This document shows, piece by piece, positions 10,603 through 53,871 of a DNA stretch of 64,000 nt (position 1 is the stretch's first letter; each line of letters begins with the position of its first letter). The position numbers were made by a program, and so were the translations under genes. The DNA lies in the NCBI RefSeq assembly GCF_056746865.1, contig NZ_CM163382.1. One strand, written 5' to 3'. Under the pieces are notes generated by a model that had not been told where the DNA came from, did no database searches, and was given only the letters and a program-made list of their open reading frames with translations.

Positions 10603-12845
<2,243 letters not shown>

Positions 12846-26318: not shown

Positions 26319-27860
<1,542 letters not shown>

Positions 27861-27928
27861 CCTTAAAGAATCGTTCTTTGAAGTGCTCACACAGATTGTC
27901 TGATGAAAATGAGCAGTAAAACCTCTAC

Positions 27929-28005
<77 letters not shown>

Positions 28006-28047
28006 AATTTGCACCGCAAATTTGAAGAGGTTTTAACTACATGTTAT

Positions 28048-28123
28048 GGGGCTATAGCTCAGCTGGGAGAGCGCCTGCTTTGCACGCAGGAGGTCTGCGG
28101 TTCGATCCCGCATAGCTCCACCA
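28048..28123 (+). tRNA. alaT: tRNA-Ala (TGC anticodon)
   Basis: GGGGCTATAGCTCAGCTGGGAGAGC...CTTTGCA...GCTCCACCA in the 16S-23S spacer. Confidence 0.95.
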
Positions 28124-28306
28124 TCTCTGTAGTGATTAAATAAAAAATACTTCAGAGTGTACCTGCAAAGGTTCACTGCGAAGTTTTGCTCTTTAAAAAT
28201 CTGGATCAAGCTGAAAATTGAAACACTGAACAACGAAAGTTGTTCGTGAGTCTCTCAAATTTTCGCAACACGATGATGAATCGAAAGAAACATCTTCGGG
28301 TTGTGA

Positions 28307-31208
<2,902 letters not shown>

Positions 31209-31300
31209 ACAACGCCGAAGCTGTTTTGGCGGATTGAGAGAAGATTTTCAGCCTGATACAGATTAAATCAGAACGCAGAAGCGGTCTGATAAACAGAATT

Positions 31301-31420
31301 TGCCTGGCGGCCTTAGCGCGGTGGTCCCACCTGACCCCATGCCGAACTCAGAAGTGAAACGCCGTAGCGCCGATGGTAGTGTGGGGTCTCCCCATGCGAG
31401 AGTAGGGAACTGCCAGGCAT
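31301..31420 (+). rRNA. rrfA: 5S ribosomal RNA
   Basis: TGCCTGGCGGCC...GGGAACTGCCAGGCAT, 120 nt. Confidence 0.97.
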
Positions 31421-40367: not shown

Positions 40368-40514
40368 GATTCGCCTGAACATGCCCTTTTTTCGTAAGTA
40401 AGCAACATAAGCTGTCACGTTTTGTGATGGCTATTAGAAATTCCTATGCAACAACTGAAAAAAAATTACAAAAAGTGCTTTCTGAACTGAACAAAAAAGA
40501 GTAAAGTTAGTCGC

Positions 40515-40623
40515 GTAGGGTACAGAGGTAAGATGTTCTATCTTTCAGACCTTTTACTTCACGTAATCGGATTTGGCTGAATATTTTAGCCGCCCCAGTC
40601 AGTAATGACTGGGGCGTTTTTTA
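40515..40623 (+). ncRNA. spf: Spot 42 small regulatory RNA
   Basis: GTAGGGTACAGAGGTAAGATGTTCTATCTTTCAGACCTTTTACTTCACGTAATCGGATTTGGCTG... ending in terminator GCCCCAGTCAGTAATGACTGGGGCGTTTTTT; recognised by sequence. Confidence 0.92.
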
Positions 40624-41651: not shown

Positions 41652-41896
41652 ATAGAGCGAGGACGCTAACAGGAACAATGACTCAGGATGAGGGTCAGGA
41701 GCGCCAGGAGGCGAAGACAGAGGATTGTCAGGAAGACAAACGTCCGGAGACGTAATTAAACGGAAATGGAATCAACACGGATTGTTCCGGCTAATGGAAA
41801 AACAGGGTGTGTTGGCGGCCTGCAAGGATTGTAAGACCCGTTAAGGGTTATGAGTCAGGAAAAAAGGCGACAGAGTAATCTGTCGCCTTTTTTCTT
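41652..41896 (+). ncRNA. csrC: CsrC small RNA (CsrA-sequestering)
   Basis: ATAGAGCGAGGACGCTAACAGGAACAATGACTCAGGATGAGGGTCAGGAGCGCCAGGAGG...; dense AGGA/CAGGA motifs; intrinsic terminator GGCGACAGAGTAATCTGTCGCCTTTTTT at 3' end. Confidence 0.88.
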
Positions 41897-41962
41897 TGCT
41901 TGCTTTCTGTTAGATTCCGCCGCAAATCTATACTGAATAAAACGGCTAAAAGACGAACCATT

Positions 41963-42472: not shown

Positions 42473-42660
42473 CGGATTGCCGCCGTGGGCCTTCCCGTTC
42501 TGCTGATAACCCTTCCGGTTATATGTTATCTGGTGTGGTTATTCGTTAAACTACAGCGGTTGTCGCGGCGACAAAAGTGGCTGCGCAACCGGCTGATGAC
42601 CCGAAACGGGCATCCGCCGGTACGCCGTAGCCGCCAGAGACGCCATCGGAAGGAGTGAGC

Positions 42661-44034
42661 ATGTCTGTACAGCAAATCGACTGGGATCTGGCCCTGATCC
42701 AGAAATATAACTATTCCGGGCCACGATACACCTCGTACCCGACCGCGCTGGAGTTTTCAGAAGACTTCGGCGAACAGGCGTTTTTACAAGCCGTGGCGCG
42801 CTATCCTGAGCGTCCATTATCTCTCTACGTACATATTCCGTTCTGCCATAAGCTTTGTTACTTCTGCGGTTGCAATAAGATTGTTACTCGCCAGCAGCAC
42901 AAGGCCGATCAGTATCTGGACGCGCTGGAGCAAGAAATCGTCCATCGTGCACCGCTGTTCGCCGGGCGTCACGTCAGCCAATTGCACTGGGGCGGTGGTA
43001 CGCCGACGTATCTGAACAAAGCGCAAATCAGCCGTCTGATGAAGCTGCTGCGCGAAAACTTCCAGTTCAATGCCGATGCGGAGATTTCGATCGAAGTCGA
43101 TCCGCGTGAAATCGAACTGGATGTACTCGATCATTTACGCGCCGAGGGCTTTAATCGCCTGAGCATGGGCGTGCAGGACTTCAACAAAGAAGTGCAACGT
43201 CTGGTTAACCGCGAGCAGGATGAAGAGTTCATCTTTGCACTGCTTAACCATGCGCGTGAGATTGGTTTTACCTCCACCAACATCGACCTGATTTACGGCC
43301 TGCCGAAACAGACGCCGGAGAGTTTCGCCTTTACCCTGAAACGCGTGGCGGAGCTGAACCCCGATCGTCTGAGTGTCTTCAACTACGCGCATCTGCCGAC
43401 CATTTTTGCTGCTCAGCGCAAAATCAAAGATGCTGACTTGCCGAGTCCGCAGCAAAAACTCGATATCCTGCAGGAAACCATCGCCTTCCTGACGCAATCG
43501 GGCTATCAGTTTATCGGTATGGATCACTTTGCTCGCCCGGATGACGAGCTGGCGGTGGCCCAGCGTGAAGGCGTGCTGCATCGTAACTTCCAGGGCTACA
43601 CCACTCAGGGCGATACCGATCTGCTGGGGATGGGCGTTTCCGCCATCAGCATGATTGGCGACTGCTACGCGCAGAACCAGAAAGAGTTGAAGCAGTACTA
43701 TCAGCAAGTGGATGAACAAGGCAATGCGCTGTGGCGTGGTATTGCGCTAACGCGTGATGACTGTATTCGCCGCGATGTGATTAAGTCGCTCATCTGCAAC
43801 TTCCGTCTGGATTTCGCCCCCATTGAGCAACAGTGGGATTTGCACTTCCCTGATTACTTTGCCGAAGATCTCAAGCTGCTCGCCCCGTTAGCAAAAGATG
43901 GGCTGGTGGATGTGGATGAGAAGGGGATTCAGGTGACGGCGAAAGGTCGCCTGCTTATCCGCAACATTTGCATGTGCTTTGATACCTATCTGCGCCAGAA
44001 AGCGCGGATGCAGCAGTTCTCTCGGGTGATTTAA
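42661..44034 (+). CDS. hemN: Oxygen-independent coproporphyrinogen III oxidase (radical SAM)
   Basis: ORF 42655-44034; ATG at 42661 gives 457 aa; CxxxCxxC radical-SAM motif (CHKLCYFCGC). Confidence 0.95.
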   Translation: MSVQQIDWDLALIQKYNYSGPRYTSYPTALEFSEDFGEQAFLQAVARYPERPLSLYVHIPFCHKLCYFCGCNKIVTRQQHKADQYLDALEQEIVHRAPLFAGRHVSQLHWGGGTPTYLNKAQISRLMKLLRENFQFNADAEISIEVDPREIELDVLDHLRAEGFNRLSMGVQDFNKEVQRLVNREQDEEFIFALLNHAREIGFTSTNIDLIYGLPKQTPESFAFTLKRVAELNPDRLSVFNYAHLPTIFAAQRKIKDADLPSPQQKLDILQETIAFLTQSGYQFIGMDHFARPDDELAVAQREGVLHRNFQGYTTQGDTDLLGMGVSAISMIGDCYAQNQKELKQYYQQVDEQGNALWRGIALTRDDCIRRDVIKSLICNFRLDFAPIEQQWDLHFPDYFAEDLKLLAPLAKDGLVDVDEKGIQVTAKGRLLIRNICMCFDTYLRQKARMQQFSRVI

Positions 44035-44100
44035 ATAGTGAATGGCGCTTCGTTTACAAAGTAGAAAACGAAAGCGCCATCAATGTGCTGAGAACAAGAT

Positions 44101-44192
44101 TGCCTGATGCGCTACGCTTATCAGGCCTACAAAACCTGTTGAAAATATTGCTTTTGTAGGCCGGATAAGGCGTTCACGCCGCATCCGGCATG
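44101..44192. repeat. REP/BIME elements downstream of hemN
   Basis: GCCTGATGCGCTACGCTTATCAGGCCTAC ... GCCGGATAAGGCGTTCACGCCGCATCCGGC. Confidence 0.75.
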
Positions 44193-44223
44193 AACAAAGA
44201 GCACTTCATCAGCAATCTGAAAC

Positions 44224-44334
44224 TCAACTAAACAGCCCAATCATTGCGGCACACAGCACGGCAGCAACGGCAGTTTGCGGTGTGTGGCTGTCAACTGCGC
44301 CACTCGATACCAGATTAATTATTGATTCCAGCAT
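44224..44334 (-). CDS. yshB: Small protein YshB (36 aa)
   Basis: Below the ORF-track size cutoff; minus-strand ATG 44332-44334 to TGA 44224-44226 encodes MLESIINLVSSGAVDSHTPQTAVAAVLCAAMIGLFS, matching the described E. coli small protein YshB. Confidence 0.6.
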   Translation of the reverse strand: MLESIINLVSSGAVDSHTPQTAVAAVLCAAMIGLFS

Positions 44335-44445
44335 AACGACTCTCCCCGTTTTCCGGGCAAGATCATACTGAACTTATCGGAACAGTAAAGCGCAAAATAC
44401 CAGCAATTTGCGCTCAATAATCAATCTTTACACACAAGCCGTGAA

Positions 44446-45855
44446 TCACTCCATCCCCAGCTCTTTTAACTTACGCGTCAGAGTGTTGCGGCCCCAGCCG
44501 AGTAGCCGCGCCGCTTCCTGTTTATGCCCCTGCGTATGTCGCAATGCGGTTGTCAGTAAAGTCCGCTCCAGCTCAGGCTGCGCTTCGGAAAGCAGATTTT
44601 GATGACCGGAACGCAGCGCCCTGTCTGCCCACTGCGCTAACAGCGTCGCCCAACTGTCCGGTTGCATATGCGAAGTACTCTCCGCAACCGTTGACTCAAA
44701 CAGTTCGCTGGGCAAATCCTGAATCAACACTTCCTGTCCGGCAGCCATCACCGTTAGCCAGCGACAGGTGTTTTCCAGCTGGCGTACGTTACCCGGCCAT
44801 GCCAGACGCGTCAGCGCGGCTTCGGTTTCCGGATGCAGCAACTTCGCTTCTACGCCCAGCTCGCGCGCGGCAACCTGTAAAAAATGACGTGCCAGACGGG
44901 GAATATCTTCCCGACGCTCACGCAGTGGCGGCAGATGAACGCGGATGACGTTCAGGCGGTGGAACAGATCCTCACGGAACTTACCTTCCTGCACCCGCTG
45001 TTCAAGATTCTGGTGAGTGGCAGCGATAATCCGCACATCCACTTTCACCGGCGCATAGCCGCCAACGCGATAAAACTGACCGTCTGCCAGCACGCGCAGC
45101 AAACGCGTCTGCACATCCAGCGGCATATCACCAATTTCGTCGAGAAATAACGTGCCGCCATCGGCCTGTTCAAAACGCCCCTGACGAATGGTGTTCGCGC
45201 CAGTAAACGCGCCTTTCTCGTGACCAAACAGTTCTGATTCGATCAAATCCTTCGGGATAGCCGCCATATTCAGCGCGATAAATGGCGCTTTGGCTCGCGG
45301 ACTGTGGCGATGCAGGGCATGAGCGACCAGTTCTTTACCGGTGCCGGATTCGCCGTTAATCAGCACGCTAATAGAAGAACGCGAAAGCCGACCGATAATA
45401 CGGAACACGTCCTGCATGGCTGGCGCTTCGCCGATGATATCGGTCGTTGGGCCGTTAAGCTGAACATTACGCGGCTGCTGCTGTTCCTGGTAATGACTGA
45501 TGGCGCGCTCAACCAGCGCGACGGCTTCGTCGATATCAAACGGTTTGGGCAGATAATCAAACGCCCCTTGTTGATAGGCGCTGACGGCAGCATCCAGATC
45601 GGAATGTGCGGTCATAATGATGACCGGAAGCATCGGATGGCGCTGTTTAATCTGCTTGAGCAGCGCCAGCCCGTCCATTCCCGGCATACGGATATCTGAA
45701 AGCAGCACATCCGGCGTTTTGCTCGCCAGCGCCTCCAGTACCTCCGCGCCGTTCTCAAATGTCGTACAGGTTAAACCCGCTCCAGCGAGCGCACGTTCAA
45801 GCACCCAACGGATGGAACTATCGTCATCGACTACCCAGACTATCCCTCGTTGCAT
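44446..45855 (-). CDS. glnG: Nitrogen regulation response regulator NtrC (sigma54 activator)
   Basis: ORF 44446-45915; true start ATG 45853-45855 ([23 protein letters not shown]...), 469 aa; GAFTGA motif present. Confidence 0.95.
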
Positions 45856-48582: not shown

Positions 48583-48720
48583 AGCGAAATCTGTGCCAAC
48601 TTTTAAATTGCCCCTAAAAGGCGTTATCATGCTTAACATCGTGCAAAAGGGCTGCACCATGATATGAATGTTGCACCAATATAGTGCTTCAATGGAAACA
48701 TTAAGCACCATATTGGTGCA
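48583..48720 (-). promoter_or_regulatory. glnAp2 sigma54 promoter (TTGGCACAGATTTCGCT at 48583-48599, minus strand) with upstream NtrC enhancer sites (48672-48687 and 48705-48720)
   Basis: -24 GG / -12 GC element on the glnA strand; palindromes TGCACCAATATAGTGC and GCACCATATTGGTGCA further upstream. Confidence 0.8.
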
Positions 48721-48871
48721 ATGACCTTTGGATAACCCTTTTTATGCTCCGTGAAAGCGATCACAAAGGGACTCTGCAATACTTGTTTGCGGAGGATGTT
48801 TGTGATCCTGTTTTGTAGTGCGATTAATCCGTGTACAATAACGCGCTATTTCTAATGCCTGAGGCAAAGTT

Positions 48872-51629: not shown

Positions 51630-53871
<2,242 letters not shown>

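What the first reader, a model, noticed from the sequence alone, without database searches (positions are those of the whole stretch)
44224..44334. Sub-threshold small ORF (36 aa, YshB) hidden between hemN and glnG
The hemN-glnG interval is 411 bp and the ORF track (60-aa minimum) shows nothing there. The minus strand has ATG (44332-44334) to TGA (44224-44226) encoding MLESIINLVSSGAVDSHTPQTAVAAVLCAAMIGLFS, a small protein with a hydrophobic C-terminal segment that matches the E. coli small protein YshB. Easy to miss in automated annotation.
Basis: partly seen in the sequence, partly recalled or inferred. Interest (0 to 1): 0.45.

Follow-up and report, generated by a model that had tools for sequence, protein, structure and literature searches.

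The report
Known small-protein gene yshB, correctly spotted
The 36-codon reading frame between hemN and glnG is real and is the known E. coli small-protein gene yshB; it is conserved, under protein-level selection and already annotated in public genomes, so the finding is correct but not new.

Summary
The hemN-glnG gap is 411 bp (44035-44445). The minus strand carries ATG 44334-44332 to TGA 44226-44224, encoding MLESIINLVSSGAVDSHTPQTAVAAVLCAAMIGLFS. This sequence is residue-for-residue UniProt YSHB_ECOLI. It scores 72.1 bits against NCBIfam NF033841 'small_YshB' (cut-off 34). RefSeq annotates the locus as yshB; it is single-copy in 5425 of 5426 complete E. coli genomes.

My own tests show a true coding gene:
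- The ORF is intact, with the same ATG start, in all 45 full-length orthologues, and sits in the same glnG -> yshB <- hemN position.
- dN/dS is about 0.10, and variable sites by codon position are 20/8/33.
- A Shine-Dalgarno GGAG lies 7 nt from the ATG.
- The sigma-70-type promoter (TTTACT-16-TATGAT) is 99% conserved across genera, against 59% at third codon positions.

Published work reports YshB detection by top-down mass spectrometry, high abundance in stationary phase, cleavage by the RseP intramembrane protease, and a role in Salmonella intracellular replication.

The claim that it is 'easy to miss in automated annotation' is out of date for NCBI's pipeline. The biochemical function remains unknown. 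Novelty: already known. Interest: low.

The parts
44224..44334 (-). yshB coding sequence: 36 codons plus TGA; product MLESIINLVSSGAVDSHTPQTAVAAVLCAAMIGLFS
   Evidence: sequence and translation. (NF033841, 72.1 bits, cut-off 34). (identical to YSHB_ECOLI). (intact in 45/45 full-length orthologues; dN/dS about 0.10; variable sites by codon position 20/8/33).
44340..44347 (-). Shine-Dalgarno-like purine run GGGGAGAG; its GGAG (44345-44342) lies 7 nt upstream of the ATG
   Evidence: Read directly. A G-rich run (GGGGG or GGAG) is present at the same distance in all orthologues.
44362..44367 (-). Predicted -10 hexamer TATGAT of yshB's own promoter
   Evidence: the only promoter-like site in 43950-44550, either strand. 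(GTATGAT nearly invariant in 33 genomes). (99% identity versus 59% at third codon positions). The start site was not mapped here; about 44355-44353 is expected from the spacing.
44384..44389 (-). Predicted -35 hexamer TTTACT, 16-bp spacer to the -10
   Evidence: CTTTAC invariant; 99% identity. It overlaps the T-rich tail of the hairpin that follows glnG.
44388..44415 (-). Hairpin GAGCGCAAA-N10-UUUGCGCUU, 31 nt after the glnG stop codon. It is the likely glnALG terminator and abuts or overlaps the yshB -35
   Evidence: fold. (91% of cells paired but no compensatory change, so it is conserved as sequence and the structure is neither proven nor refuted). (87% identity). The terminator scan did not call it because its T-run is poor.
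44423..44433 (-). Conserved box GTGTAAAGATT about 70 bp upstream of the predicted start; function unknown (possible regulator site or glnG 3'UTR element)
   Evidence: 88% identity, against 39% for the 15 bases from the glnG stop codon to the box.
44101..44189 (.). Pair of inverted REP elements (a BIME) in the yshB 3' untranslated region
   Evidence: strong fold of the whole 196-nt 3' region, z = -8.1. (sub-threshold Rfam naRNA4/REP-type hit at 44159-44195); the full gap hits a median of 39 places per E. coli genome, while the REP-free part hits exactly 1. REP content varies between E. coli lineages.
44041..44081 (.). Long hairpin just past the hemN stop codon, shared by the convergent hemN and yshB transcripts (terminator-like, no clear U-tract)
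   Evidence: about 15 pairs. Identical in four E. coli lineages. Not called by the terminator scan.

Best explanation
This is yshB, a genuine, independently transcribed, single-gene locus that encodes the known 36-residue small protein YshB.

Expression:
- A sigma-70-type promoter (TTTACT-16-TATGAT) sits directly after the glnG hairpin.
- From the spacing, it should give a leader of about 20 nt with a well-placed GGAG.
- The 3'UTR carries two REP elements and ends in a hairpin shared with the convergent hemN.

Product:
- It is a 3.6-kDa acidic peptide with no Lys or Arg.
- It is predicted to form a helix (residues 2-15), a break at the invariant S/A-HTPQT motif, and a hydrophobic helix (residues 17-35) carrying the invariant Cys28.

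Most likely mechanism (inferred, about 50-60%):
- The C-terminal helix anchors YshB in the inner membrane with the N-terminus in the cytoplasm.
- Like other enterobacterial small membrane proteins, it acts by binding and modulating a larger membrane protein.
- Its level is set by growth phase and by RseP intramembrane proteolysis.

The partner and the biochemical activity are unknown.
For: Identity:
- NF033841 at 72.1 bits.
- Identical to YSHB_ECOLI and annotated yshB in RefSeq.

Coding:
- Intact ORF with the same ATG in 45/45 full-length loci.
- Mean dN 0.092 and mean dS 0.926; codon-position variability 20/8/33.
- Within Escherichia, differences are third-position synonymous, apart from V9L (L008, L009) and D15N (L009) in two divergent genomes.

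Synteny:
- glnG -> yshB <- hemN holds in all loci where both flanks were recovered, except L032 (no hemN) and L004 (glnG replaced by ISEcp1). It also holds in the very common variant.

Own promoter:
-.

Protein seen:
- Top-down MS (PMC12529367).
- More than 11,000 copies per stationary-phase cell (PMC7549839; PMC10502375).

Membrane and N-in orientation:
- RseP cleaved tagged YshB in all four assays, including with purified enzyme (PMC10470546, Table 1). The same paper states that RseP substrates are generally type II (N-in/C-out).

Fold:
- AF2 model with two helices, pLDDT 75.8.

Physiology:
- The Salmonella homologue promotes replication in host cells and virulence (Bomjan 2019, as summarised).
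Against: - The uncharged stretch is only 16 residues (T21-S36), with no flanking positive charges and no Lys or Arg anywhere. This is short for a membrane span and gives no positive-inside signal.
- PMC12529367 lists YshB apart from 'the small membrane proteins'.
- All RseP data used N-terminally tagged, plasmid-expressed constructs, and the authors say cleavage of the authentic forms remains to be established.
- No transcription start, ribosome-footprint or localisation data could be examined directly here.
- No binding partner is known.
- Most orthologous loci were found through a protein-motif pattern, so conservation of HTPQTA itself is partly by construction.
Confidence: 0.9

Rival explanations
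1. YshB is a real protein but not an integral membrane protein. It would be a soluble or peripherally bound acidic, amphipathic peptide that acts in the cytoplasm or at the membrane surface.
For: - Only 16 uncharged residues at the extreme C-terminus, no Lys or Arg, pI 4.35.
- PMC12529367 names it separately from the small membrane proteins.
- The N-terminal helix has a moderate hydrophobic moment (0.38).
Against: - RseP, an intramembrane protease, cleaved it in four assays, including in vitro.
- TMHMM or TOPCONS predicted a single span for all proteins chosen in that screen.
- NCBI's curated family name is 'small membrane protein'.
- The mean Kyte-Doolittle hydropathy of residues 21-35 is 2.37.
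Confidence: 0.2
2. The ORF is a chance frame, and the conserved element is a non-coding RNA or a purely regulatory intergenic sequence.
For: - ORFs of this length are common by chance; two decoys of 34 and 37 aa lie in the same gap.
- The local Pfam copy gave no hit.
Against: - dN/dS about 0.10.
- Third codon positions vary at 33/36 sites, second positions at 8/36.
- The other five frames are open in at most 12/42 genomes.
- ATG and SD are conserved.
- The protein has been detected by MS.
- No Rfam family other than a REP-type hit lies in the gap.
Confidence: 0.01
3. YshB is a type I toxin-like small hydrophobic peptide (Hok/Ibs/Ldr style) kept in check by an antisense RNA.
For: - It is small, has a hydrophobic C-terminal helix, and groups with HokB and HokE as a class I RseP substrate.
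Against: - No promoter-like site on the opposite strand anywhere in 43950-44550.
- Naturally very abundant (more than 11,000 copies), which does not fit a toxin.
- No positively charged flank of the kind I recall in Hok- and Ibs-type toxins (from my own knowledge; composition).
- Single copy, core, strictly syntenic gene.
- No PADLOC hit.
Confidence: 0.03
4. The main selected function of the locus is in cis or at the RNA level. Examples: coupling or insulating the glnALG and hemN transcripts through the overlapping terminator and promoter, or an mRNA with a second role as a base-pairing RNA. The peptide would be secondary.
For: - The glnG-yshB spacer is far more conserved than neutral sites (74% versus 59% identity to the window).
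- It includes a box (44423-44433) and a hairpin of unknown role.
- The -35 overlaps the hairpin tail.
- In Pseudomonas an sRNA (NrsZ) occupies the equivalent position after ntrBC (PMC9731577).
Against: - Strong protein-level purifying selection shows the peptide itself is selected.
- No covariation supports either hairpin.
- yshB is not nitrogen-regulated.
Confidence: 0.05

Closest known systems
YshB of Escherichia coli K-12 (UniProt YSHB_ECOLI; EcoCyc G0-10657; RefSeq WP_000893994.1; NCBIfam NF033841; Pfam PF28018)
   Same: Identical amino-acid sequence, the same position between glnG and hemN, and the same promoter region (1-3 mismatches in 111 nt).
   Different: There are only silent DNA differences: one synonymous change in the ORF versus a K-12-like genome. 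The 3' spacer is also shorter (189 bp versus 228 bp) because the K-12 and ST131 lineages carry extra REP sequence directly after the stop codon.
YshB of Salmonella enterica (Bomjan, Zhang & Zhou 2019, J Bacteriol 201:e00314-19)
   Same: 94% identical, 36 aa, with the same synteny and promoter boxes. It is reported to promote intracellular replication and virulence (as summarised).
   Different: Two residues differ (M31L, I32V). The virulence phenotype was shown in Salmonella, and I found no E. coli phenotype in the papers available. I could not read the primary paper.
Enterobacterial small membrane-protein modulators (MgrB-PhoQ, CydX-cytochrome bd, Blr-divisome, YohP)
   Same: Size class, a single predicted hydrophobic helix, stress or stationary-phase abundance, and RseP susceptibility shared with Blr, MgrB and CydX.
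   Different: There is no sequence relationship. YshB has no known partner, lacks any positive flanking charge, and its hydrophobic stretch is at the extreme C-terminus and unusually short.
Type I toxins HokB/HokE
   Same: Small, hydrophobic, and class I RseP substrates in the same screen.
   Different: No antisense promoter, very high natural abundance, and a core single-copy syntenic gene.

Membership tests
YshB family small membrane protein (NCBIfam NF033841, equivalog) | Score at or above the curated HMM cut-off over the full length | tested here: met
   72.1 bits against a cut-off of 34; residues 1-36 align to profile positions 1-40 of 40.
YshB family small membrane protein (NCBIfam NF033841, equivalog) | Sequence identity to the type member E. 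coli YshB | tested here: met
   An exact-sequence look-up returns 'Uncharacterized protein YshB ... RepID=YSHB_ECOLI'. The protein accession WP_000893994.1 is the same in K-12-like, ST131 and other genomes.
YshB family small membrane protein (NCBIfam NF033841, equivalog) | Family-invariant residues (M1, H17-T-P-Q-T-A22, A25, C28, A29) and a length of 36-40 aa | tested here: met
   In an alignment of 29 distinct members, all invariant columns are present in the window protein. Caveat: the HTPQTA motif was used to find most of the loci.
YshB family small membrane protein (NCBIfam NF033841, equivalog) | Conserved genomic position: downstream of glnG on the same strand, convergent with hemN | tested here: met
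   Shown by tblastn of GlnG and HemN on all loci and by the called genes. L032 has no hemN match within 3 kb, and in E. coli EC16 (L004) ISEcp1 replaces the glnG side.
YshB family small membrane protein (NCBIfam NF033841, equivalog) | The ORF is translated into a stable protein | not testable with these tools
   Literature only: top-down MS detection (PMC12529367) and the abundance estimate cited. The computational proxy, purifying selection with dN/dS about 0.10, is met.
YshB family small membrane protein (NCBIfam NF033841, equivalog) | Integral inner-membrane localisation | not testable with these tools
   The sequence is ambiguous: a 16-residue uncharged stretch and no Lys or Arg. Indirect support comes from RseP cleavage of tagged constructs.
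Type I toxin-antitoxin small hydrophobic toxins (Hok/Ibs/Ldr type) | Overlapping or adjacent antisense RNA gene with its own promoter | tested here: not met
   No promoter-like site on the plus strand in 43950-44550, and no Rfam antitoxin sRNA in the gap.
Type I toxin-antitoxin small hydrophobic toxins (Hok/Ibs/Ldr type) | Toxicity on expression, with low basal level | not testable with these tools
   The literature reports very high natural abundance, which argues against this.
Leader peptide / regulatory upstream ORF | A downstream co-directional gene whose expression the small ORF controls | tested here: not met
   The next gene, hemN, is convergent. REP elements and a hairpin follow the stop codon.

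The most novel reading that the evidence does not exclude
The strict adjacency of yshB to hemN, kept from Escherichia to Erwinia and Mangrovibacter, may be functional. hemN encodes the oxygen-independent coproporphyrinogen III oxidase. Together with the invariant His17 and intramembrane Cys28, this could mean that YshB is a haem- or porphyrin-handling or redox accessory peptide for anaerobic haem synthesis or a haem-containing membrane complex, in the manner of CydX. Alternatively, the conserved box at 44423-44433 and the hairpin overlapping the -35 could couple yshB transcription to read-through from glnALG. Nothing I found excludes either idea, and nothing supports them beyond synteny and invariant residues.
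Probability: 0.05. Interest if true: 0.45.

Novelty: already known. Interest (0 to 1): 0.08.

Why it matters
As a finding it matters little. yshB is attributed to Hemm et al. 2008 and is annotated in RefSeq. It has curated NCBIfam and Pfam models and has been studied in Salmonella virulence and as an RseP substrate.

The exercise does show that a tool-less reader can recover a true sub-threshold gene. It also shows that simple comparative tests separate it cleanly from the chance ORFs next to it. These tests were an intact frame across genera, codon-position variability, dN/dS and a conserved promoter.

What remains open is YshB's molecular function and partner. It is a very abundant, core, strongly conserved peptide with an invariant HTPQT motif and an invariant Cys. 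The unusually conserved regulatory spacer upstream of it is also unexplained.

Tried and rejected
I used the representatives search instead.
2. The local Pfam-A copy gave no hit, although precomputed hits elsewhere carry PF28018:YshB. PADLOC gave none. The PDB sequence search gave none, even at E = 10.
3. I tested a small hairpin (CCCG 44357-44354 / CGGG 44348-44345) between the -10 and the SD. The idea was that it forms only in read-through RNA from glnALG and masks the SD, as in IS10/IS50 protection from outside transcription.
   - It folds no better than shuffles (mean -6.4 versus -5.05 kcal/mol across 36 orthologues).
   - It shows no significant covariation.
   - I dropped it: a C-rich discriminator and a G-rich SD pair by composition alone.
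4. The hairpin after glnG is 91% paired but has no compensatory change. It is conserved as sequence, so the structure is unproven.
5. The genome scan returned no Klebsiella, Serratia or Yersinia.
   - For a very common Klebsiella-like variant this is a technical miss. Its Ser16 codon is AGT, which I infer the back-translated pattern does not cover.
   - A preprint reports the family in the K. pneumoniae core genome.
   - The scan therefore understates the true taxonomic range.
6. Primary papers were not held: Bomjan 2019, Hemm 2008 and 2010, Fontaine 2011 and Storz 2014. One guessed PMC id was an unrelated paper. The supplements of two ribosome-profiling papers were not held. The paper cap then stopped look-ups of transcript-end data. 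I therefore have no direct start-site or footprint data.
7. A search for a described sRNA in the glnG-hemN spacer found nothing.
8. There is no paralogue of yshB elsewhere in the window.

Full report
**1. The observation.**

Reading the minus strand of 43900-44700 shows the following:
- The glnG stop codon TGA is at 44448-44446.
- An ATG is at 44334-44332.
- A TGA is at 44226-44224.

Translation gives MLESIINLVSSGAVDSHTPQTAVAAVLCAAMIGLFS. The ORF list at a 20-aa minimum places hemN at 42655..44034 (+), and the RefSeq start corresponds to window 42661. It places glnG ending at 44446 (-), so the gap is 411 bp.

Length alone means nothing here. The same gap holds ORFs of 34 aa (44080..44184) and 37 aa (44127..44240) that cross repeat elements.

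**2. Identity.**

- The 411-bp gap is 100% identical to many RefSeq E. coli chromosomes, and the feature under it is 'yshB: YshB family small membrane protein'. In strain 118UI this is WP_000893994.1, lying between hemN and glnG.
- A repeat-free sub-query (44215-44445) hits exactly one place in 5425 of 5426 complete E. coli genomes. In all 40 rows sampled across the ranking the match is annotated yshB.
- The peptide scores 72.1 bits against NCBIfam NF033841 'small_YshB' (equivalog, cut-off 34).
- An exact-sequence look-up returns UniProt YSHB_ECOLI, on at least 1000 contigs.
- The local Pfam copy had no hit, but precomputed annotations carry PF28018:YshB.

**3. Is it really coding?**

An all-against-library HMMER search found only 15 clusters at E <= 1e-3 among 1.84 billion representatives. 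Several of these are frameshifted or mis-started versions. The true members share HTPQTA and A-x-x-C-A.

A pattern scan of one genome per species returned 46 loci:
- Escherichia, Salmonella, Citrobacter, Enterobacter, Kosakonia, Trabulsiella, Phytobacter, Pluralibacter, Leclercia and Pseudenterobacter;
- Mangrovibacter, with 40-aa forms;
- Izhakiella, an Erwinia sp. and a 'Brenneria sp.'

Erwinia tracheiphila has a 37-aa member.

Further results:
- Wherever both flanks were recovered, GlnG lies upstream on the same strand and HemN is convergent downstream. The exceptions are L032 (no hemN match within 3 kb) and L004 (glnG replaced by ISEcp1).
- All 45 full-length ORFs are intact, start at the same ATG and have a G-rich Shine-Dalgarno run.
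- Across 42 distinct 36-codon sequences, variable sites by codon position are 20/8/33. Mean dN is 0.092 and mean dS is 0.926 (ratio 0.10). The other five frames are open in at most 12 of 42.
- Within Escherichia the differences from the window are third-position synonymous. The exceptions are V9L (L008, L009) and D15N (L009) in two divergent genomes.
- A very common variant (MFESLVSM...; a 56.6% GC genome, probably Klebsiella) has the same glnL-glnG-yshB-hemN-yihI context. The scan missed it; its Ser16 codon is AGT, which I infer the back-translated pattern does not cover. A preprint also places the family in the K. pneumoniae core genome.

Caveat: most loci were found through the HTPQTA motif, so that motif's invariance is partly by construction. 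The rest of the evidence is not affected.

**4. Anatomy of the locus.**

*Promoter.*
- The only promoter-like site on either strand of 43950-44550 is TTTACT (44389-44384), a 16-bp spacer, then TATGAT (44367-44362) on the minus strand.
- In an alignment of 33 genomes, CTTTAC and GTATGAT are invariant or nearly so.
- Both hexamers are 99% identical to the window. This compares with 59% at third codon positions and 39% for the 15 bases from the glnG stop codon to the box.
- The distance from the -10 to the ATG is 24-28 nt in the orthologues measured. From the spacing, the transcript should start near 44355-44353, leaving a leader of about 20 nt.
- GGAG (44345-44342) lies 7 nt from the ATG.

*Upstream elements.*
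- A hairpin at 44415-44388 follows glnG, and its T-rich tail is the -35. It is 91% paired across genomes but has no compensatory change.
- A box GTGTAAAGATT (44433-44423) is 88% conserved and unexplained.

*Downstream elements.*
- Two inverted REP elements lie at 44101-44189, followed by a long hairpin at 44041-44081 abutting the hemN stop. Together they fold strongly (z = -8.1).
- Rfam gives only a sub-threshold REP-type hit there.
- The REP content differs between E. coli lineages. The spacer is 189 bp here and 228-232 bp in K-12-like and ST131 genomes.

**5. The protein.**

- It is 3618 Da with pI 4.35, no Lys or Arg, and two acidic residues.
- The only long uncharged stretch is T21-S36, 16 residues.
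- AlphaFold2 with the 29-sequence alignment gives helix 2-15, a break at S16, and helix 17-35, with mean pLDDT 75.8.
- Invariant residues are M1, H17, T18, P19, Q20, T21, A22, A25, C28 and A29.
- There is no solved relative and no defence-system match.

**6. What is published (as read here).**

- yshB is attributed to Hemm et al. 2008. [quoted passage not shown]
- YshB is predicted at more than 11,000 copies per stationary-phase cell (PMC7549839; PMC10502375).
- A C-terminally His-tagged form was not detectable.
- Intact YshB was detected by top-down MS. It has no tryptic sites (PMC12529367), which I confirmed.
- Tagged YshB is a class I RseP substrate: it was cleaved with plasmid-borne RseP, with chromosomal RseP and with purified RseP (PMC10470546). 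RseP substrates are generally N-in/C-out.
- The Salmonella homologue promotes replication in host cells and virulence (Bomjan 2019, cited). I could not read the primary paper.
- yshB was down-regulated in E. coli in a mouse colitis model (PMC12592466).

**7. Mechanism.**

Shown here:
- a conserved, selected coding frame;
- conserved promoter and SD boxes;
- conserved synteny;
- a two-helix prediction.

Taken from the literature:
- the protein exists and is abundant;
- RseP can cleave tagged forms;
- there is a Salmonella phenotype.

Inferred:
- the C-terminal helix anchors the protein in the inner membrane with the N-terminus in the cytoplasm;
- YshB acts on a larger membrane protein, as MgrB, CydX or Blr do;
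- the REP pair stabilises the mRNA (from general knowledge of REP elements);
- RseP and growth phase set the level of the protein.

I put the gene call at above 0.95 and the membrane-modulator mechanism at about 0.5-0.6. The main rival is a non-integral, peripheral or soluble peptide (0.2). Chance-ORF, toxin and RNA-only readings are each at or below 0.05.

**8. Comparison and novelty.**

This is not merely like YshB; it is YshB. Every defining feature that could be tested is met, as listed in the membership table. Only 'easy to miss in automated annotation' is outdated for NCBI's pipeline.

- Novelty: already known.
- Interest: about 0.08.
- The most novel reading not excluded is a haem- or redox-related role tied to hemN adjacency and the invariant His and Cys, or regulatory coupling to glnALG. 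It rests on synteny alone, and I give it about 0.05.

Noticed in passing
window 44101-44223; L002:623-850; L003:623-854: The yshB 3' spacer is polymorphic within E. coli. This window and two other genomes have 189 bp with two REP elements. K-12-like and ST131 genomes have 228-232 bp, with extra REP sequence inserted directly after the stop codon.
   Followed up: partly
window 44423-44433 (-): The box GTGTAAAGATT, about 70 bp upstream of the predicted yshB start and 13 nt past the glnG stop, is 88% conserved across genera. The bases just before it are 39% conserved. No function is assigned; it could be a regulator site or a glnG 3'UTR element.
   Followed up: partly
window 44384-44415 (-): The hairpin after glnG and the yshB -35 hexamer overlap, so one stretch serves as terminator tail and promoter. 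The arrangement and the 110-116-nt glnG-yshB distance are kept from Escherichia to Erwinia.
   Followed up: partly
L004:1-489 (E. coli EC16, NZ_CM169485.1): An ISEcp1 transposase gene replaces the glnG side. Similarity to the window begins 22 nt into the spacer, between the conserved box and the hairpin, and the yshB promoter and ORF are left intact.
   Followed up: no
window 41678-41844 (L001:644-810): RefSeq annotates a 'hypothetical protein, frameshifted; internal stop' pseudogene. It lies entirely inside the CsrC sRNA found by Rfam at 41652-41905, so it is probably an annotation artefact.
   Followed up: no
P0002, P0005-P0008: Several cluster representatives are YshB N-termini fused to out-of-frame tails. 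P0007 joins YshB residues 1-24 to the 37-aa decoy ORF frame at 44127..44240. These are deletion or frameshift alleles, or assembly errors, in public data.
   Followed up: no
window 44080-44184 and 44127-44240 (-): Two ORFs of 34 and 37 aa sit in the same gap as yshB. They run through the REP elements, which are absent or different in other genera. They serve as internal examples of chance ORFs.
   Followed up: partly
L049-L051, L032: Mangrovibacter and 'Brenneria sp. 4F2' carry 40-aa YshB forms. They have a 4-residue insertion in the linker before the invariant HTPQT motif, and a C-terminus ...INFF(N/S).
   Followed up: no
window 10957-11208, 26319-31418, 40505-40623, 41652-41905, 48683-48790, 53054-53176: Rfam at gathering threshold finds known RNAs elsewhere in the window: Erse, an rrn operon with two tRNAs and StyR-44, Spot 42, CsrC, ES222 and isrC.
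   Followed up: no
The local Pfam-A copy returned no family for YshB. Precomputed annotations on the encoding contigs list PF28018:YshB, so the local library appears to predate or omit that model.
   Followed up: no
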